Shown here: positions 2,732 through 23,841 of the stretch, piece by piece | How positions within the stretch are numbered: the first letter of the stretch is position 1 | How the letters are laid out: every line of letters begins with the position of its first letter | IMG/VR virus record: IMGVR_UViG_3300037780_000034 | Span: 160,001-224,000 of that record | Strand: one strand, 5' to 3' | DNA length: 64,000 nucleotides | DNA from: a virus | Taxonomy: Duplodnaviria > Caudoviricetes | Notes under the pieces: generated by a model | Databases searched by the model: none | What the model was told of the DNA's origin: nothing | The model's input: only the letters and a program-made list of their open reading frames with translations | Translations under genes and position numbers: made by a program

Positions 2732-3250
2732 ATGAATAATGAAAGAAAATATCTTGTTTTTCTAGATATTGATGGTGTATTTACATCAAGTAGAGTTCAT
2801 TATGCTCATAATGGAAGCTACGATATGTGGGCAAGATTTGATCCAATTGCAGTTGACTTTATGAATAAAATACACGATAGATATCCTGTAGAATTTGTAA
2901 TTATGTCAACTTGGAAAAATTTCATTGATTCAAAAAGTATGCAATCCGAACATTGGGTCCAGTCTGCTTTTGCAAACAGTGGGTTTAGAGGAAAGTTTGC
3001 ATCACCTTGGAAAACTGATCCAGATGAAGAATGGATCAAACAAACAATGGATCGCGGAGAAGAAGTTCTTCGTTATTTAAATACTTATGGGTCTGATGTT
3101 GAAGATTTTATTCTGTTTGATGATAACCGATATAGATTTAATGAAATTCTTCCTAAAAAACGCCTAGTGTTAACTGATTCGGAAAATGGGTTATTGTTTA
3201 AACATATGTTGAATGCACAAAGCATTATGGGAGTTTGGAAAGAAAAATGA
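2732..3250 (+). CDS. HAD-superfamily phosphatase (Swiss-Army-knife RNA-repair-like HAD)
   Basis: Motif I LVFLDIDGV, motif II IMSTWK, motif IV ILFDD. Confidence 0.75.
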   Translation: MNNERKYLVFLDIDGVFTSSRVHYAHNGSYDMWARFDPIAVDFMNKIHDRYPVEFVIMSTWKNFIDSKSMQSEHWVQSAFANSGFRGKFASPWKTDPDEEWIKQTMDRGEEVLRYLNTYGSDVEDFILFDDNRYRFNEILPKKRLVLTDSENGLLFKHMLNAQSIMGVWKEK

Positions 3251-3734: not shown

Positions 3735-3929
3735 ATGACAGAACGTGAAAAAGAATTATTAGGAACTATTGAAGGTCTTGTAAACTGGATTTCTGCATTA
3801 CGAGAACTGGTTGATAACACAGATTGTAACCCAGATAATATTGAAGATTTTTCAGAAGTATTATTGGCTAGTGATCTTCAAAGAATTTCTGGCGAAAATA
3901 TATTAGAAAAATATGGATTTAGAAAATGA
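3735..3929 (+). CDS. Hypothetical protein
   Basis: 64-aa ORF tightly packed between neighbours. Confidence 0.55.
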   Translation: MTEREKELLGTIEGLVNWISALRELVDNTDCNPDNIEDFSEVLLASDLQRISGENILEKYGFRK

Positions 3930-4270
3930 AACAAATGTTGGTGATGAGAAAAGATTTAAATATGAGAAAAGGGAAACTCATTGCACAAGGTGCACACGCA
4001 AGTATGAAAGCTACACTTGAAAACCTTGATCATCCAAGTGTAAAACAATGGCTAGACGGGCCGTTTACAAAAATTGCAGTTTCTGTTGAATCAGAAGAAG
4101 AATTACTTGAAGTAATGAATAATGCAAAAGAAGCAGGTCTTATCACTGCTTTGATTACCGATGCAGGACGAACTGAGTTCAATGGTGTTCCTACTAATAC
4201 CTGCATTGCAGTTGGACCAGCTACAAATGAACAATTACAGTCAATAACAGGACATTTGAAATTATTATGA
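3926..4270 (+). CDS. pth2: Peptidyl-tRNA hydrolase, Pth2 family
   Basis: KQMLVMRKDLNMRKGKLIAQGAHAS and DAGRTE...TCIAVGP signature motifs. Confidence 0.92.
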   Translation: MKQMLVMRKDLNMRKGKLIAQGAHASMKATLENLDHPSVKQWLDGPFTKIAVSVESEEELLEVMNNAKEAGLITALITDAGRTEFNGVPTNTCIAVGPATNEQLQSITGHLKLL

Positions 4271-5305: not shown

Positions 5306-5334
5306 TTGACGAATCACTATAGTTTGTGTATTAT
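5306..5334 (+). promoter_or_regulatory. Sigma70-like promoter
   Basis: TTGACG-N17-TATTAT. Confidence 0.75.
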
Positions 5335-5364: not shown

Positions 5365-5931
5365 ATGAAACTGAACTTGAGAAAATCCAGTGCATTACAA
5401 GAAAGTTTAAAGCAATTTATTACACAGAATATGCCAACTTCTGACGTAAGAATTAATCAATATGAAGACGTAAATTCTCAGTTGCAAAAAGCAGAAACTC
5501 TATTTACAGAACAGACTAATTCATTTTTTCTTTTTTCAGATATTCTATATGAAATTAGAAAAAAAGTATCAACTGCAAATCAAATATCAGGAATAAATGA
5601 TATATTGACAAACGTTGCTTTAATTGATAAGAAAATTCAATTTTTATCTAGATTAATAAATTCAGGTGAAATGATTTCATCAGAAGTATTGACTGGAAAA
5701 CTTGAAAAACTAAAAACACGTGATGAATCGTCATACTATAGTGACAGTAATGATAATGTTATTACAAGTATAATTTCATCTGAAAAAATGTTAGAATTTA
5801 CAGAAACACTAAAGTTTTTGAAAAAAGAAAAACAAAGTTTACAGGATAAGTTGTTAGAATTAAATATTTCTAACTATATAGAACTATCTGATGAAATTGT
5901 TTCTATTTTACAAAAAGAATCCCTTATATAA
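5365..5931 (+). CDS. Helical/coiled-coil hypothetical protein
   Basis: 188-aa ORF with its own promoter and AAGGA SD; heptad-rich; followed by a structured non-coding region. Confidence 0.7.
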   Translation: MKLNLRKSSALQESLKQFITQNMPTSDVRINQYEDVNSQLQKAETLFTEQTNSFFLFSDILYEIRKKVSTANQISGINDILTNVALIDKKIQFLSRLINSGEMISSEVLTGKLEKLKTRDESSYYSDSNDNVITSIISSEKMLEFTETLKFLKKEKQSLQDKLLELNISNYIELSDEIVSILQKESLI

Positions 5932-5934
5932 TAG

Positions 5935-6206
5935 GGGTGTGTATGCAGGTTGAATTCAATCTGCATATCGGAGCAAGAAAGTAATAGAACACAGAAATAG
6001 ATAACTTTTACTCGTTATCAGAAATCCAGTTAGGAATCAAGCCTTGAAAGCTTTATTAAATTTGTGTGATCCAGAATTAAAAATATATTATATATGTTTT
6101 TTGTTATTTGCTGTCTGGGTATATACATAAATTTGTGTATTGATAATTGATTTTTGTAATTTGTTTAATTTCTGTTAATATCTTTCTTGTTCCTTTTATT
6201 AAAAGG
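5935..6206 (+). ncRNA. Candidate structured non-coding RNA or cis-element (~270 nt)
   Basis: Nested pairings: TATGCAGGTTGAA/TTCAATCTGCATA; GGAGCAAGAAAG (5970-81) with CTTTCTTGTTCC (6182-93); ACAGAAAT/ATTTCTGT; GATAAC/GTTATC; AAATTTGTGT..TCCAGA with TCTGGG..ACATAAATTT. No ORF of 60 aa or more in the track. Confidence 0.55.
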
Positions 6207-6215
6207 AATTATTAA

Positions 6216-6458
6216 ATGACATATATAAATTATCCAACCGGATTACCCATTCAACAATATGGATGGATTTGTTCAAAATGCGGAAGAAGTAATTCACCAT
6301 CTACGCCAACATGTTTTTGCTGGACAGGAGCATCACAATATCCATCAACTAATCCTACACTTCCGTGGTTTACAGTTAGTTCTACTATTGGATATACAGA
6401 ACAAGAAACGTCAACTGCAGATATATCAACTATAACTTATAGAACAAATGCAATTTAA
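6216..6458 (+). CDS. Small zinc-ribbon-like protein
   Basis: GWICSKCGRSNSPSTPTCFC cysteine cluster. Confidence 0.55.
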   Translation: MTYINYPTGLPIQQYGWICSKCGRSNSPSTPTCFCWTGASQYPSTNPTLPWFTVSSTIGYTEQETSTADISTITYRTNAI

Positions 6459-6831
6459 AGTATTAGTTTGTGGTGGCAGAGATTATACTAACAAAGATAA
6501 AGTTTTTGAAACTTTAGATATGATTAAAGAAATATGTGAAAATAATATTATTAATTCATCAGAAATAGTAATAATACACGGCGGCGCGCGCGGCGCAGAC
6601 AATCTAGCAGGAATGTGGGCAAAAGCAAATAACATTCAATCAAATGTATATCTCGCAGATTGGAAAGCATATGGAAATCGTGCAGGACCGATAAGAAATC
6701 AATTAATGTTAAAATCAGAAAATCCAGATATAGTAGTTGCATTTCCAGGAGGAAATGGAACTAATCATATGGTATCAATAGCAAGAAAAAATAACACAGA
6801 AGTTTATATAGTAGAGGATAAAGATGAGTAA
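6448..6831 (+). CDS. YspA/SLOG-family nucleotide-binding protein (DUF2493-like)
   Basis: [29 protein letters not shown] motifs. Confidence 0.85.
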
Positions 6832-7417
6832 TTTTATACCAAGTGTAATAGAAAAAAATTCACACGGTGAACGAGCATATGACTTATATAGTCGTCTTTT
6901 AAAAGATCGCATTGTTATGCTTAATGGTCAGGTAGATGACAATTCTGCAAATATTGTAATTGCACAGCTTCTTTTTTTAGAAAGCGAAAACCCAGAAAAA
7001 CCAATTAAATTTTATATCAACAGTCCCGGTGGTGTAATAACATCTGGATTAGCGATTCGTTCAACTATGATGTATATTAACTCTCCTGTTCATACAATCG
7101 TTATGGGGCAAGCTTGCTCAATGGGAAGCGTATTAGCACAGTCAGGAGAAGCAGGGCATCGTTATATACTACCAGATTCACGAATTATGGTCCATCAACC
7201 AAGCGGCGGTGCACGAGGTATGGCTAGTGACATAGAAATTTCTTATAAAGAAATACAATATCTTAAAAATAGATTAACAGAAATTTATGTAGAGCATAAT
7301 ACAAAAAATAAAACATATGAAGATTTTGAAAGAATAATGGATCGTGATACTTTTATGAATCCACAGGAAGCAATAGATTTTGGGTTAGCAGATGAAATTG
7401 TTGTAAAAAATAAATAA
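6824..7417 (+). CDS. clpP: ATP-dependent Clp protease proteolytic subunit
   Basis: [18 protein letters not shown], catalytic Ser (ACSMG), His (MVHQP) and Asp (RDTFM). Confidence 0.97.
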
Positions 7418-18402: not shown

Positions 18403-18889
18403 TGCCGAAAGACAGCAATTTGCAAAAACATTACTAAGTGGAAAAATTACTCCACAACTGTATTACAAATATCTTTATAATCAATATCATATTTATATGG
18501 CCCTTGAAGAAAAACTGGATATACCAGAAATAGAAGATGTAAAAAGACTTACAAAAATAAAAGAAGATATTAAAGAATTAGAAGAATTGTATGATTTAAA
18601 AAATACAGATCAATTGTGTAGTTCAACCATTGAATATATGAAATATGTATCAGTATTAGATAAATCAAAAGTTATTTCGCATATATATGTTAGACATTTT
18701 GGAGATATGTATGGTGGTCAAATTATAAAAAAACGTATTCCAGGAAGTGGAAAAATGTATGATTTTGATAATGTTGAAAATTTAAAAACAATAATTAGAA
18801 ATATGTTAGATGATACTATGGCAGACGAAGCTAAGGTTTGTTTTGATTTTGCAACAAAATTATTTCAGGAATTATCAACAAATGAGTGA
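18362..18889 (+). CDS. hemO: Heme oxygenase (phage HemO/Ho1-like)
   Basis: LKQLTWEAHHNAE proximal His, HIYVRHFGDMYGGQII distal helix, EAKVCF. Confidence 0.92.
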   Translation: MNNLKQLTWEAHHNAERQQFAKTLLSGKITPQLYYKYLYNQYHIYMALEEKLDIPEIEDVKRLTKIKEDIKELEELYDLKNTDQLCSSTIEYMKYVSVLDKSKVISHIYVRHFGDMYGGQIIKKRIPGSGKMYDFDNVENLKTIIRNMLDDTMADEAKVCFDFATKLFQELSTNE

Positions 18890-23467: not shown

Positions 23468-23771
23468 TGGTTGTTCAACTCCTAATATAGAACAAATAGA
23501 AATTGTTGAAACTCCTAAAGAACGCCCCGCTCTCATTTTACCAAAAGTTACGCAAATAGAAACTCTTGAAGTAGAATGGATTGTGGCAAATGAACAAAAC
23601 ATTAATGATAAATTCCAAGAACTAAAAGAAAATTATAAAACACCAGTGCTATTTGCATTGGATGAAGAAAATTATCAAAATTTGAGTTTAAATCAAGTAA
23701 GATTTTTAAGACTTATTAGACAACAACAATCATTGATAGAATCCTATAAACGATATTATGAAACTCAATGA
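23424..23771 (+). CDS. Putative outer-membrane lipoprotein spanin (Rz1-like)
   Basis: Lipobox ISGC after a hydrophobic stretch, Pro-rich region, overlaps the 3' end of the i-spanin. Confidence 0.65.
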   Translation: MIFVVTLLIPITIISGCSTPNIEQIEIVETPKERPALILPKVTQIETLEVEWIVANEQNINDKFQELKENYKTPVLFALDEENYQNLSLNQVRFLRLIRQQQSLIESYKRYYETQ

Positions 23772-23778
23772 GTTTTCG

Positions 23779-23816
23779 GTATCACTATTGACATAGTGAT
23801 ACATTTGTGATATTAT
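23779..23816 (+). promoter_or_regulatory. Sigma70 promoter of clpA with an inverted repeat over the -35
   Basis: TTGACA (23788-93)-N17-TATTAT; GTATCACTAT-TGAC-ATAGTGATAC dyad 23779-23802. Confidence 0.75.
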
Positions 23817-23841
23817 GTAACAAAAGAAATAAAGGTAAAAT

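What the first reader, a model, noticed from the sequence alone, without database searches (positions are those of the whole stretch)
5935..6206. Unexplained ~270-nt multibranch structured RNA downstream of a promoter-driven coiled-coil gene
This is the longest non-coding gap in an otherwise tightly packed genome. It shows nested complementarity with several G-U pairs. There is a 5' hairpin (5942-5967), a long-range closing helix (5970-81 with 6182-93; 5991-98 with 6168-75) and internal hairpins (6000-6019, 6039-6053, 6058-6075 with ~6114-6134). A competing hairpin, CCTTTT-ATT-AAAAGG (6192-6206), would occlude the SD of the next gene. It resembles no tRNA or riboswitch I recognise. It could be a new phage ncRNA, a ligand for the upstream 188-aa protein, or a translational switch.
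Basis: seen in the sequence. Interest (0 to 1): 0.7.

Follow-up and report, generated by a model that had tools for sequence, protein, structure and literature searches.

The report
New phage RNA with partner protein
The gene-free gap encodes a real, conserved, folded RNA of about 260 bases that matches no catalogued family and that, in hundreds of large phages, always sits beside the same unknown 188-residue protein gene, usually among the phage's tRNA genes.

Summary
Window 5940-6197 (+) folds far better than shuffled controls.

The RNA matches no Rfam family, tRNA or tmRNA. The upstream ORF (5365-5931) matches no Pfam, PHROG, NCBIfam or PADLOC family, yet it belongs to a very large phage-only family (1767 clusters at 50% identity).

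The two genes are an obligate pair.
- Loci fetched through the protein carry the RNA next to the gene on the same strand: 79 by profile, 9 more divergent copies by eye.
- Loci fetched through an RNA motif carry the protein in 53 of 53 testable cases.
- The order varies (RNA before or after the gene), and the other neighbours differ.

The context is the phage tRNA / stable-RNA island: tRNAs in 68 of 91 loci, plus GOLLD and tmRNA. Some RNA ends abut tRNA ends.

The hallmark is a run of heptad-spaced UUG/YUG motifs, five in a row at 6133-6163. The protein is all-helical and is predicted to form a symmetric homodimer.

Cultured Caulobacter and Brevundimonas jumbo phages carry the pair, unannotated.

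Best reading: a stable RNA that works with the protein as a ribonucleoprotein in phage tRNA/translation biology. The function is unproven. The SD-occluding switch is not a family feature.

The parts
5306..5334 (+). sigma-70-like promoter (TTGACG, 17 nt, TATTAT) ahead of the 188-aa gene
   Evidence: Consensus scan, 10 of 12 matches. Not tested further.
5365..5931 (+). ORF188, the partner protein gene. All-helical, with a predicted homodimer.
   Evidence: No Pfam, PHROG, NCBIfam or PADLOC match. The family has 1767 clusters at 50% identity. AlphaFold2 mean pLDDT is 96. Dimer ipSAE is 0.73 against a best control of 0.01.
5927..5932 (+). TATAAT box overlapping the stop codon. It is a possible own promoter of the RNA.
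   Evidence: Read from the sequence. In relatives with the RNA upstream of the gene, TGnTATAAT-type boxes stand 6-7 nt before the RNA's 5' GUUUUG. No -35 box or TG extension is seen here, so this is an inference.
5940..6197 (+). The whole structured RNA ('RNA1'), as aligned to the family.
   Evidence: Row 1 of alignment A4. nhmmer hit at 6062-6196, E = 6e-11. It is a single copy in the 317.7-kb genome.
5941..5968 (+). P0, the 5' hairpin (12 bp, loop AATT). It corresponds to the family's UUUGGUAG...CUACC hairpin.
   Evidence: The helix recurs with changes on both sides at all 7 pairs scored (helix 1).
5970..5981 (+). P1a 5' arm (GGAGCAAGAAAG) of the closing helix.
   Evidence: repeat I13. In the family helix, 9 of 10 pairs have compensatory changes (helix 2).
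6182..6193 (+). P1a 3' arm (CTTTCTTGTTCC).
5991..5998 (+). P1b 5' arm (ACAGAAAT).
   Evidence: In the family helix, all 7 pairs have compensatory changes (helix 3).
6168..6175 (+). P1b 3' arm (ATTTCTGT).
6000..6019 (+). P2 hairpin (GATAAC / GTTATC).
   Evidence: A hairpin stands at this place in nearly all relatives when each is folded on its own.
6039..6053 (+). P3 hairpin with the 7-nt loop CUUGAAA.
   Evidence: A hairpin with a YUUGAAA-like 7-nt loop recurs in relatives.
6058..6075 (+). 5' strand of P4a and P4 (AAATTTGTGTG..TCCAGA).
   Evidence: Family helices 4 and 5 have 11 of 13 pairs with compensatory changes, for example CCAGA/UCUGG, CUAGGG/CCCUAG and CCCGC/GCGGG.
6114..6134 (+). 3' strand of P4 and P4a (TCTGGG..ATACATAAATTT).
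6133..6163 (+). Run of five UUG motifs spaced exactly 7 nt apart (G at 6135, 6142, 6149, 6156 and 6163). This is the family's hallmark.
   Evidence: One match in the window, against 0 in 100 shuffles. The 4-unit version marks the RNA site, on the + strand, in most protein-anchored loci (L002-L092) and in CcrColossus.
6192..6206 (+). Weak local hairpin over the Shine-Dalgarno of the next gene. It is not conserved in the family.
   Evidence: Read from the sequence. No counterpart in relatives.
6216..6458 (+). Downstream 80-aa zinc-ribbon-like ORF. It is not part of the conserved pair.
   Evidence: Weak Zn_ribbon_RanBP hit, below the curated cut-off. The downstream genes differ among loci. No BLASTP similarity to the 81-aa ORF at the same place in CcrColossus.

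Best explanation
WHAT IT IS. Window 5940-6197 (+) is the gene of a stable, structured non-coding RNA of about 260 nt. It belongs to a new family (here 'RNA1').

ANATOMY.
- A 5' hairpin (P0).
- A long closing helix with a conserved asymmetric internal loop (P1a and P1b).
- Two small hairpins (P2, P3).
- A two-part helix (P4a and P4).
- A largely single-stranded 3' domain carrying heptad-spaced UUG/YUG motifs.

SHOWN.
- The RNA is an obligate genomic partner of the adjacent 188-aa helical protein (ORF188, 5365-5931).
- The pair is restricted to large phages and lives in or near their tRNA / stable-RNA islands.
- Gene layout fits co-transcription with the gene or with tRNAs, followed by release through tRNA-type end processing. 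In other loci the RNA has its own promoter-like box or terminator-like end.

INFERRED. A homodimer of ORF188 binds the RNA. The repeated YUG heptads and the duplicated UUGCAnAUUG boxes would be the multivalent protein-binding platform. The resulting ribonucleoprotein would act on the translation or tRNA side of the phage-host conflict, for example by handling, protecting or decoying tRNA-directed factors.
For: RNA STRUCTURE AND STRAND.
- Fold z = -5.2.
- 34 of 41 pairs covary; 85% of cells are paired against 35-45% in slid controls.
- G-U to A-C ratio is 4.0 in register against 0.9-1.8 slid.

LINKAGE FROM THE PROTEIN SIDE.
- ORF188 homologues at 35-41% identity are all followed by an ORF-free gap, while the downstream genes differ.
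- 79 of the 92 sequences searched (91 loci and the window) have an nhmmer hit to the RNA. Every hit is on the gene's strand, either 100-600 nt downstream or ending 33-47 nt upstream of the ATG.
- Nine of the 'missing' loci carry a divergent copy between a tRNA and the gene.

LINKAGE FROM THE RNA SIDE.
- A motif scan of IMG/VR gave 58 true RNA1 loci.
- 53 of them have ORF188 within 31-563 nt on the same strand.
- The other 5 lie within 250 nt of a locus edge.

CONTEXT.
- tRNA genes occur on the same strand in 68 of 91 loci.
- GOLLD and tmRNA genes lie nearby.
- The RNA's 5' end follows a tRNA CCA directly in L011, L023, L062, L076 and L082.
- The RNA hit ends 5-13 nt before tRNA-Val in L201.
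- Extended -10 boxes or terminators flank other copies.
- In the window, a SAK-type HAD phosphatase, PTH2 and a YAcAr SLOG protein flank the pair. The genome has 24 tRNAs, most of them 12-29 kb upstream of the RNA.

HEPTAD MOTIFS.
- Unique in the window, with 0 of 100 shuffles matching.
- Kept even in roughly 58% GC cultured phages: CcrColossus has six UUG-N4 units, and Kikimora has CUGUGNN repeats.

PROTEIN.
- AlphaFold2 mean pLDDT is 96.
- Homodimer prediction: ipSAE 0.73, best of 3 controls 0.01. Runs agree in at least 97% of contacts, and partner pLDDT is at least 88.
- That mark was reached by 20 of 30 proteins solved as pairs of one chain and by 1 of 23 solved as single chains.

RESTRICTED TO PHAGES. 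Only 2 hits were found among 185,579 species' genomes. Both are on short MAG contigs, both carry the RNA, and one is packed with tRNAs.
Against: - No experiment or RNA-seq shows the transcript or its ends.
- Protein-RNA binding is inferred from gene linkage only.
- ORF188 is net acidic by my own residue count from the sequences. It has no recognisable RNA-binding domain.
- Its only solved structural neighbour is 3kdq, a protein of unknown function.
- Several of its most conserved residues (Y62, R65, L81, A85) lie in or next to the predicted dimer interface rather than on an obvious RNA-binding face.
- The heptad motifs could bind a host protein instead.
- In some loci an ORF of about 139 aa or a second RNA lies between the gene and the RNA, so contact between the two genes is not absolute.
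- The window copy is a reduced, AT-rich variant. It lacks the P5 hairpin, and its P1 is offset in the alignment.
Confidence: 0.5

Rival explanations
1. The RNA is a sponge or decoy. The heptad-spaced YUG motifs would titrate a host single-strand RNA-binding protein or a tRNA-directed nuclease, for example an Hfq, cold-shock or S1-type binder, or an anticodon nuclease that reads UG-containing loops. ORF188 would work in the same pathway without binding the RNA.
For: - Repeated short single-stranded motifs are the design of known sponge RNAs such as CsrB/RsmZ (my own knowledge).
- The context is the tRNA and RNA-repair neighbourhood.
- ORF188 is acidic and lacks an RNA-binding domain.
Against: - No host factor is identified.
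- The strict pairing with one phage protein in both search directions is not explained by a pure host-factor sponge.
- The elaborate covarying scaffold exceeds what a simple sponge needs.
Confidence: 0.2
2. The RNA is a cis-acting untranslated region of the ORF188 mRNA. It would be an autoregulatory operator or a stabilising end structure that protects the only mRNA embedded in a heavily processed tRNA precursor.
For: - The stop codon abuts the RNA's 5' end in many loci.
- In the 'upstream' loci the RNA ends 33-47 nt before the ATG with no terminator between.
- In 22 loci a second structured RNA caps the other end of the gene.
Against: - The position switches between the 5' and 3' side of the gene.
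- The RNA can be separated from the gene by a tRNA (L011), by an ORF of about 139 aa (L032, L048, L079), or by 260-560 nt.
- Invariant sequence motifs and a covarying multi-helix fold about 260 nt long are more than a stabiliser needs.
Confidence: 0.15
3. The RNA is an RNA-only self-assembling particle like GOLLD or ROOL. The self-complementary UGCA boxes would mediate RNA-RNA contacts, and ORF188 would be a merely linked gene.
For: - It shares the genomic niche of GOLLD.
- GOLLD and ROOL form RNA-only multimers (bioRxiv 10.1101/2024.12.08.627333, abstract seen).
- Three conserved UGCA or UGYR boxes can pair in alternative ways.
Against: - No sequence or structure match to GOLLD or ROOL.
- The RNA is much smaller than they are.
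- The UGCA pairings vary on one side only, so no compensatory changes support them (helix 6).
- The model does not explain the obligate protein gene.
Confidence: 0.07
4. It is a DNA-level element, such as a replication origin or a protein-binding iteron array with cruciform-forming inverted repeats.
For: - Both strands fold better than shuffles.
- Short direct repeats with a fixed period resemble iterons.
- The local sequence is AT-rich.
Against: - G-U pairs are tolerated while A-C pairs are depleted about three-fold, and only for the + strand reading.
- The element always has the orientation of the gene and of the tRNAs.
- Its ends coincide with tRNA ends, promoters and terminators.
Confidence: 0.03

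Closest known systems
GOLLD and ROOL large ornate RNAs (Rfam RF02032 is GOLLD), and the T4 'species 1 and 2' stable RNAs of phage tRNA clusters
   Same: They share the genomic niche: phage tRNA / stable-RNA islands, on the same strand as the tRNAs. GOLLD lies within about 0.1-3 kb of RNA1 in L002, L034, L035 and L050. All are elaborately folded, and none has a known function.
   Different: - No sequence or structure match.
- RNA1 is much smaller, about 245-295 nt.
- No tRNA is embedded in it.
- It is coupled to a dedicated protein gene, whereas GOLLD and ROOL are described as RNA-only complexes.
- The comparison with the T4 RNAs rests on my own knowledge and was not tested.
Ro (TROVE/Rsr) with Y RNA, a ribonucleoprotein encoded in bacterial and phage RNA-repair neighbourhoods
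   Same: - A structured RNA whose 5' and 3' parts form a long closing stem, with pyrimidine-rich single-stranded regions.
- It is encoded next to its protein partner.
- Both sit in an RNA-repair or tRNA context. Jumbo phages with Ro are noted in PMC7824862, section 3.4.9.
   Different: - ORF188 is a 188-aa helical dimer, not a TROVE ring. It has no Pfam hit.
- There is no Y RNA match in Rfam.
- No tRNA-like domain was detected.
HutP and TRAP operator RNAs, which are oligomeric proteins reading spaced trinucleotide repeats
   Same: Both have short trinucleotide motifs repeated at a fixed spacing in single-stranded RNA. From my own knowledge, HutP reads UAG-N4-UAG-N4-UAG, the same 7-nt period.
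   Different: - The motif here is UUG/YUG, not UAG or GAG.
- The repeats sit inside a large covarying scaffold rather than in a terminator/antiterminator leader.
- ORF188 has no similarity to HutP or TRAP.
- The position relative to genes varies.
Type III toxin-antitoxin pairs (ToxIN-like)
   Same: A non-coding RNA with repeats is encoded next to a protein of about 170-190 aa on the same strand.
   Different: - There is no tandem array of repeats about 36 nt long.
- The RNA is one multi-helix fold.
- ORF188 has no PADLOC match.
- The gene order varies.

Membership tests
Any Rfam 15 family (including tRNA, tmRNA, 6S, RNase P, Y RNA, GOLLD, ROOL, riboswitches) | A covariance-model score at or above the family's gathering threshold. 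| tested here: not met
   The whole window gave 0 matches at gathering thresholds. Permissive scans of the window copy, of a consensus-like copy (L057) and of the CcrColossus copy gave only chance-level hits, with E >= 0.13 and scores far below gathering. ARAGORN found no tRNA or tmRNA.
GOLLD / ROOL-type ornate phage RNAs | Sequence and structure match to the family model, a size of 500-800 nt, and frequently an embedded or adjacent tRNA. | tested here: not met
   The GOLLD model finds true GOLLD copies in L002, L034, L035 and L050, but never at the RNA1 site. RNA1 is 243-296 nt long.
Ro-Y RNA ribonucleoprotein | A TROVE-domain protein partner and a Y RNA stem with a tRNA-like module. | tested here: not met
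   ORF188 has no TROVE or other Pfam domain. Neither Rfam nor ARAGORN detects a Y RNA or a tRNA-like module.
Cis-regulatory 5' leader (riboswitch, ribosomal-protein-type or T4 gene 32-type operator) | A fixed position in the 5' UTR of the regulated gene. | tested here: not met
   The RNA lies downstream of ORF188 in about two thirds of loci and upstream in about one third. Its other neighbour varies.
Type III toxin-antitoxin (ToxIN, CptIN, TenpIN) | A tandem array of RNA repeats about 34-45 nt long upstream of a ToxN-like endoribonuclease gene. | tested here: not met
   The repeat search found only short 7-nt-period motifs and 2-copy chance repeats. There are no PADLOC or Pfam hits for ORF188.
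HutP / TRAP-type repeat operators | UAG or GAG triplets at a fixed spacing, bound by a HutP- or TRAP-fold oligomer. | tested here: not met
   The period of 7 nt is met. The triplet is UUG/YUG, not UAG or GAG. The protein shows no Pfam match to those folds, and they were not among the listed structural matches, which does not by itself exclude a distant relation.
New family 'RNA1 + ORF188' as defined here | P0 hairpin; covarying P1, P4a and P4 helices; at least 3-4 heptad-spaced YUG motifs; and adjacency on the same strand to an ORF188-family gene. | tested here: met
   The window copy has all of these features.

The most novel reading that the evidence does not exclude
RNA1 and ORF188 form a previously unrecognised class of phage ribonucleoprotein. 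A helical protein dimer would read a heptad-periodic YUG array on a dedicated scaffold RNA. The particle would be made from the phage tRNA operon and would intervene in host or phage tRNA metabolism or in ribosome function, for example by countering tRNA-targeting defences. It would be as widespread in large phages as their tRNA islands.
Probability: 0.35. Interest if true: 0.9.

Novelty: new variant of a known kind. Interest (0 to 1): 0.8.

Why it matters
Large phages carry tRNA islands that also hold enigmatic stable RNAs such as GOLLD, ROOL and the T4 species 1 and 2 RNAs. The functions of these RNAs have been open for decades.

This element is a new, widespread member of that niche, and it comes with a dedicated protein partner. 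That partner gives an experimental handle the RNA-only families lack: pull-down, co-structure and genetics.

The pair is present, unannotated, in cultured phages of tractable hosts: Caulobacter phages CcrColossus (gp272) and CcrPW, and Brevundimonas phages Domovoi, Kikimora, Gurke, Papperlapapp and Kabachok. The question is therefore directly testable.

The protein family has 1767 clusters at 50% identity and no annotation anywhere. The RNA is absent from Rfam. Both would improve phage genome annotation.

Tried and rejected
SEARCHES THAT FOUND NOTHING.
- Rfam at gathering and at permissive thresholds gave no family. ARAGORN found none.
- A DNA search of the cultured-phage collection with the locus gave no match.
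- Single-protein scans of IMG/VR gave none. Only the profile scan worked.
- tblastn of one family member (P0006) against cultured phages gave none. The window's own protein at a relaxed E-value found the Caulobacter and Brevundimonas phages.
- Two look-ups of earlier scan findings by sequence returned nothing.
- Three literature searches gave nothing on this RNA or protein. Two papers were read without finding it.

METHODS THAT FAILED.
- RNAalifold on the first MAFFT alignment predicted no structure, because the alignment was too rough.
- mafft-qinsi is not installed.
Covariation was therefore counted on the MAFFT alignment A4 with a hand-derived structure. P0, P2, P3 and P5 are only partly in register there.
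- Sequencing runs: no RNA holder is listed, only three DNA runs from pond or other metagenomes.

WEAK PROTEIN LEADS.
- Fold searches of ORF188 against the PDB gave only 3kdq, of unknown function: Foldseek E = 0.06, VIA Z = 10.8.
- The Atlas search points distantly to DUF6847.
- A weak sequence resemblance to the 8-kDa domain of DNA polymerase beta (E = 0.036) is not significant.

IDEAS CONSIDERED AND DROPPED.
- RNase P, 6S, SRP or tmRNA relative: no Rfam signal.
- K-turn in the P1 internal loop: the 3' strand lacks the GA.
- T-loop in P2: the A58 equivalent is missing.
- Anticodon-loop mimicry by the heptads: no stems lie between them.
- Triplex between the U-rich heptads and the purine strand of P1: it is not maintained in GC-rich members.
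- The ~80-aa ORFs downstream in the window and in CcrColossus are not detectably homologous.
Full report
WHERE THE WINDOW LIES. The window is bases 160001-224000 of a 317.7-kb IMG/VR phage record of about 30% G+C, estimated 85% complete. DNA runs that hold the locus are pond or other metagenomes. The flagged gap (5932-6215) lies between a 188-aa ORF (5365-5931, +) and an 80-aa ORF (6216-6458, +).

The + strand of 5935-6206 folds to -70.9 kcal/mol, against -47.8 +/- 4.4 for 200 dinucleotide shuffles (z = -5.2, none as good). The - strand folds to -49.5 kcal/mol (z = -4.8). A mechanical ORF cover ranks the gap third. The two longer 'gaps' are open reading frames in frame 3 and fold like shuffles. 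The flagged gap is thus probably the longest true non-coding stretch of the window. No Rfam family, tRNA or tmRNA matches.

THE PROTEIN FAMILY. ORF188 matches nothing in Pfam, PHROGs, NCBIfam or PADLOC.
- A word-indexed search found homologues at 35-41% identity.
- A profile search of 1.84 billion representatives found 1767 clusters at E <= 0.001, and the 150 best listed are 184-217 aa long, nearly all 184-199.
- A profile scan of IMG/VR confirmed 353 loci.
- Among 185,579 species' genomes only two short MAG contigs carry it. One of them is packed with tRNAs. The family is therefore essentially phage-only.

LINKAGE SEEN FROM THE PROTEIN SIDE. In every contig fetched for the first homologues, the gene is followed by an uncalled gap of 215-1350 nt, while the downstream genes differ.
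- The gap sequences share obvious motifs.
- A crude nhmmer profile of the 3' half hit 79 of the 92 sequences searched (91 loci and the window).
- Every hit is on the gene's strand. It lies either downstream of the gene (100-600 nt after the stop) or upstream, ending 33-47 nt before the ATG. A few lie at 83-257 nt.
- Nine loci without a hit carry a recognisable divergent copy: eight between a tRNA and the gene, and one (L046) just downstream of the gene.
- L064 and L080 are cut at the relevant side. L037 and L085, which resemble L035 and L067 in gene layout, were not examined.

LINKAGE SEEN FROM THE RNA SIDE. I then searched independently of the protein, scanning IMG/VR for an RNA motif (GAAATA, 10-13 nt, then four heptad-spaced TG/TTG).
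- 58 of 80 fetched loci were true RNA1 by nhmmer.
- 53 of these have an ORF188 homologue within 31-563 nt on the same strand.
- The other five have the RNA within 250 nt of a locus edge.
- The 22 chance matches have neither RNA nor protein.
- The association is thus complete in both directions, with variable gene order. This is the signature of a functional pair rather than of conserved synteny.

STRUCTURE AND COVARIATION. Forty distinct copies were aligned (A4). Helices were derived from a column-pair scan and by inspection.
- With the resulting six helices (41 pairs), 85.4% of cells are standard pairs, against 35-45% when partners are slid by 1-3 columns.
- 34 pairs show changes on both sides (294 cells, against 49-94 slid).
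- The covariation score is 0.542, against 0.10-0.16 slid and 0.28 shuffled. None of 500 shuffles reaches any of the observed measures.
- The closing helix changes wholesale between subfamilies, for example GGAGAAAG/CUUUCUCC against AACCAGGU/ACCUGGGU.
- The inner helix changes CCAGA/UCUGG to CUAGGG/CCCUAG or CCCGC/GCGGG.
- One four-pair helix (UGYR with UGCA) varies on one side only, so it remains unproven.
- G-U pairs are kept at chance level, while A-C pairs are about three-fold depleted: 215 to 54 in register, against ratios of 0.9-1.8 in slid registers. The pairing is therefore selected at the RNA level on the + strand.
- P2 and P3 recur as hairpins when each sequence is folded alone. P3 has a 7-nt YUUGAAA-like loop.
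- A full-length covariance model could not be built because of the calibration limit.

THE HEPTAD MOTIF. The 3' domain carries UUG triplets spaced exactly 7 nt apart.
- The window has five in a row (6133-6163). This is the only such run in 64 kb, with none in 100 shuffles.
- Two further UUGs spaced 7 nt apart lie in the P4 loop (6101-6110).
- The four-unit version marks the RNA site, on the + strand, in most protein-anchored loci.
- It survives in the roughly 58% G+C cultured phages. CcrColossus has six UUG-N4 units, and Kikimora has CUGUGNN repeats.
- A box UUGCAnAUUG occurs twice, each time just before the 3' strand of a helix.

ENDS OF THE RNA.
- 5' end: in 'upstream' loci, a TGnTATAAT-type extended -10 box stands 6-7 nt before the conserved 5' GUUUUG. 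In L011, L023, L062, L076 and L082 the RNA starts right after the CCA of a tRNA. In 'downstream' loci it starts 0-5 nt after the ORF188 stop codon.
- 3' end: L031 and L039 have terminator hairpins. L002 and L079 have a U run after P1. In L201 the RNA hit ends 5-13 nt before tRNA-Val.
- These features fit a stable RNA released from polycistronic tRNA-type precursors or made from its own unit. They are read from sequence only, because no RNA data could be found.
- In the window a TATAAT (5927-5932) overlaps the stop codon, with no evident -35 box.

CONTEXT.
- tRNA genes on the same strand occur in 68 of 91 loci of about 5.5 kb.
- GOLLD RNAs and tmRNAs, including permuted ones, lie nearby in several.
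- The window's genome has 24 tRNAs, most of them in a cluster 12-29 kb upstream of the RNA.
- The pair is flanked by a SAK-type HAD phosphatase (2732-3250), PTH2 (3926-4270), a YAcAr SLOG protein (6448-6831) and ClpP.
- These gene types are discussed for jumbo phages under RNA repair, ribosome rescue and NAD-centred conflict systems (PMC7824862, section 3.4.9 and passages of section 3.4.8).

THE PROTEIN.
- AlphaFold2 gives a very confident model: mean pLDDT 96, five long helices and two short strands.
- The only solved neighbour is 3kdq, of unknown function.
- Predicted viral neighbours include uncharacterised proteins of Caulobacter phage CcrColossus, Vibrio phage Vp_R1 and Erwinia phage pEa_SNUABM_47. 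Two giant viruses match more weakly.
- A two-copy prediction supports a symmetric homodimer. The ipSAE is 0.73 against a best control of 0.01, the runs agree in at least 97% of contacts, and the partner pLDDT is at least 88. That mark was reached by 20 of 30 proteins solved as pairs of one chain and by 1 of 23 solved as single chains. This is the model's confidence, not a measurement.
- By my count of residues, the protein is slightly acidic.

CULTURED PHAGES. tblastn with the window's protein finds homologues at 23-25% identity in Caulobacter phages CcrColossus and CcrPW and in five Brevundimonas jumbo phages. In the three records read, the gene (CcrColossus gp272, DOMOVOI_02640, KIKIMORA_01770) is followed by an unannotated gap of 284-313 nt. 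Each gap has the same P0, P1 and heptad features. HAD-like and phosphoribosyltransferase-like genes lie upstream, as in the window.

INTERPRETATION.
- Shown: a real, conserved, + strand structured RNA of a new family; an obligate, order-independent linkage to a new protein family; and a home in phage tRNA / stable-RNA islands.
- Inferred: the protein dimer binds the RNA, perhaps through the duplicated boxes and the heptad array, and the particle acts in tRNA or translation-related conflict.
- Rivals: a sponge for a host factor, a cis-acting UTR of the ORF188 mRNA, and an RNA-only assembly remain possible. A DNA-level element is unlikely.

Noticed in passing
L053:3077-3421, L062:3071-3414, L034:3065-3413, L011:678-1047 (22 loci in all): A second conserved element ('RNA2'), ORF-free in most copies. 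It is mostly about 320-440 nt long, up to about 560. It starts right after the ORF188 stop codon and in most loci runs up to a tRNA-Met gene. Rfam has no match. It is absent from the window's genome and from the three cultured-phage loci searched.
   Followed up: partly
L002:4446-4909, L034:617-1081, L035:1642-2106, L050:482-943; L035:3979-4404, L050:4920-5274: GOLLD RNAs, each with an embedded tRNA, and tmRNAs, including permuted ones, lie within a few kb of the RNA1-ORF188 pair. These loci are dense stable-RNA islands.
   Followed up: no
G000:C1:138544-138617 (outside the window, about 27 kb upstream of the RNA): The phage's tRNA cluster includes a tRNA with anticodon CTA, an amber-suppressor type that ARAGORN labels Pyl. 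This hints that TAG may be read through in part of this genome. Reading TAG through did not increase ORF coverage in this window.
   Followed up: partly
window 2732-3250, 3926-4270, 6448-6831, 6824-7417: The pair is flanked by a 'Swiss Army Knife' HAD phosphatase domain protein, peptidyl-tRNA hydrolase PTH2, a YAcAr SLOG protein and a full ClpP protease. This is an RNA-repair, ribosome-rescue and NAD-type neighbourhood. PTH2 is also adjacent in L002.
   Followed up: partly
window 18403-18809 and 23468-23841: Two stretches were left uncovered by my greedy cover of ORFs of 60 aa or more. Both are open in frame 3, so they are artefacts of the cover. They are not structured (z = -0.6 and -2.3).
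   Followed up: yes
ORF188 residues 74-160: A weak, non-significant profile resemblance (E = 0.036) to the N-terminal 8-kDa lyase domain of DNA polymerase beta, including a GI..L.E.A..EK stretch. It may be chance among helical proteins.
   Followed up: no
L032, L048, L079: about 10-430 nt after the ORF188 stop: In one subfamily a conserved ORF of about 139 aa sits between ORF188 and RNA1. It was not characterised.
   Followed up: no
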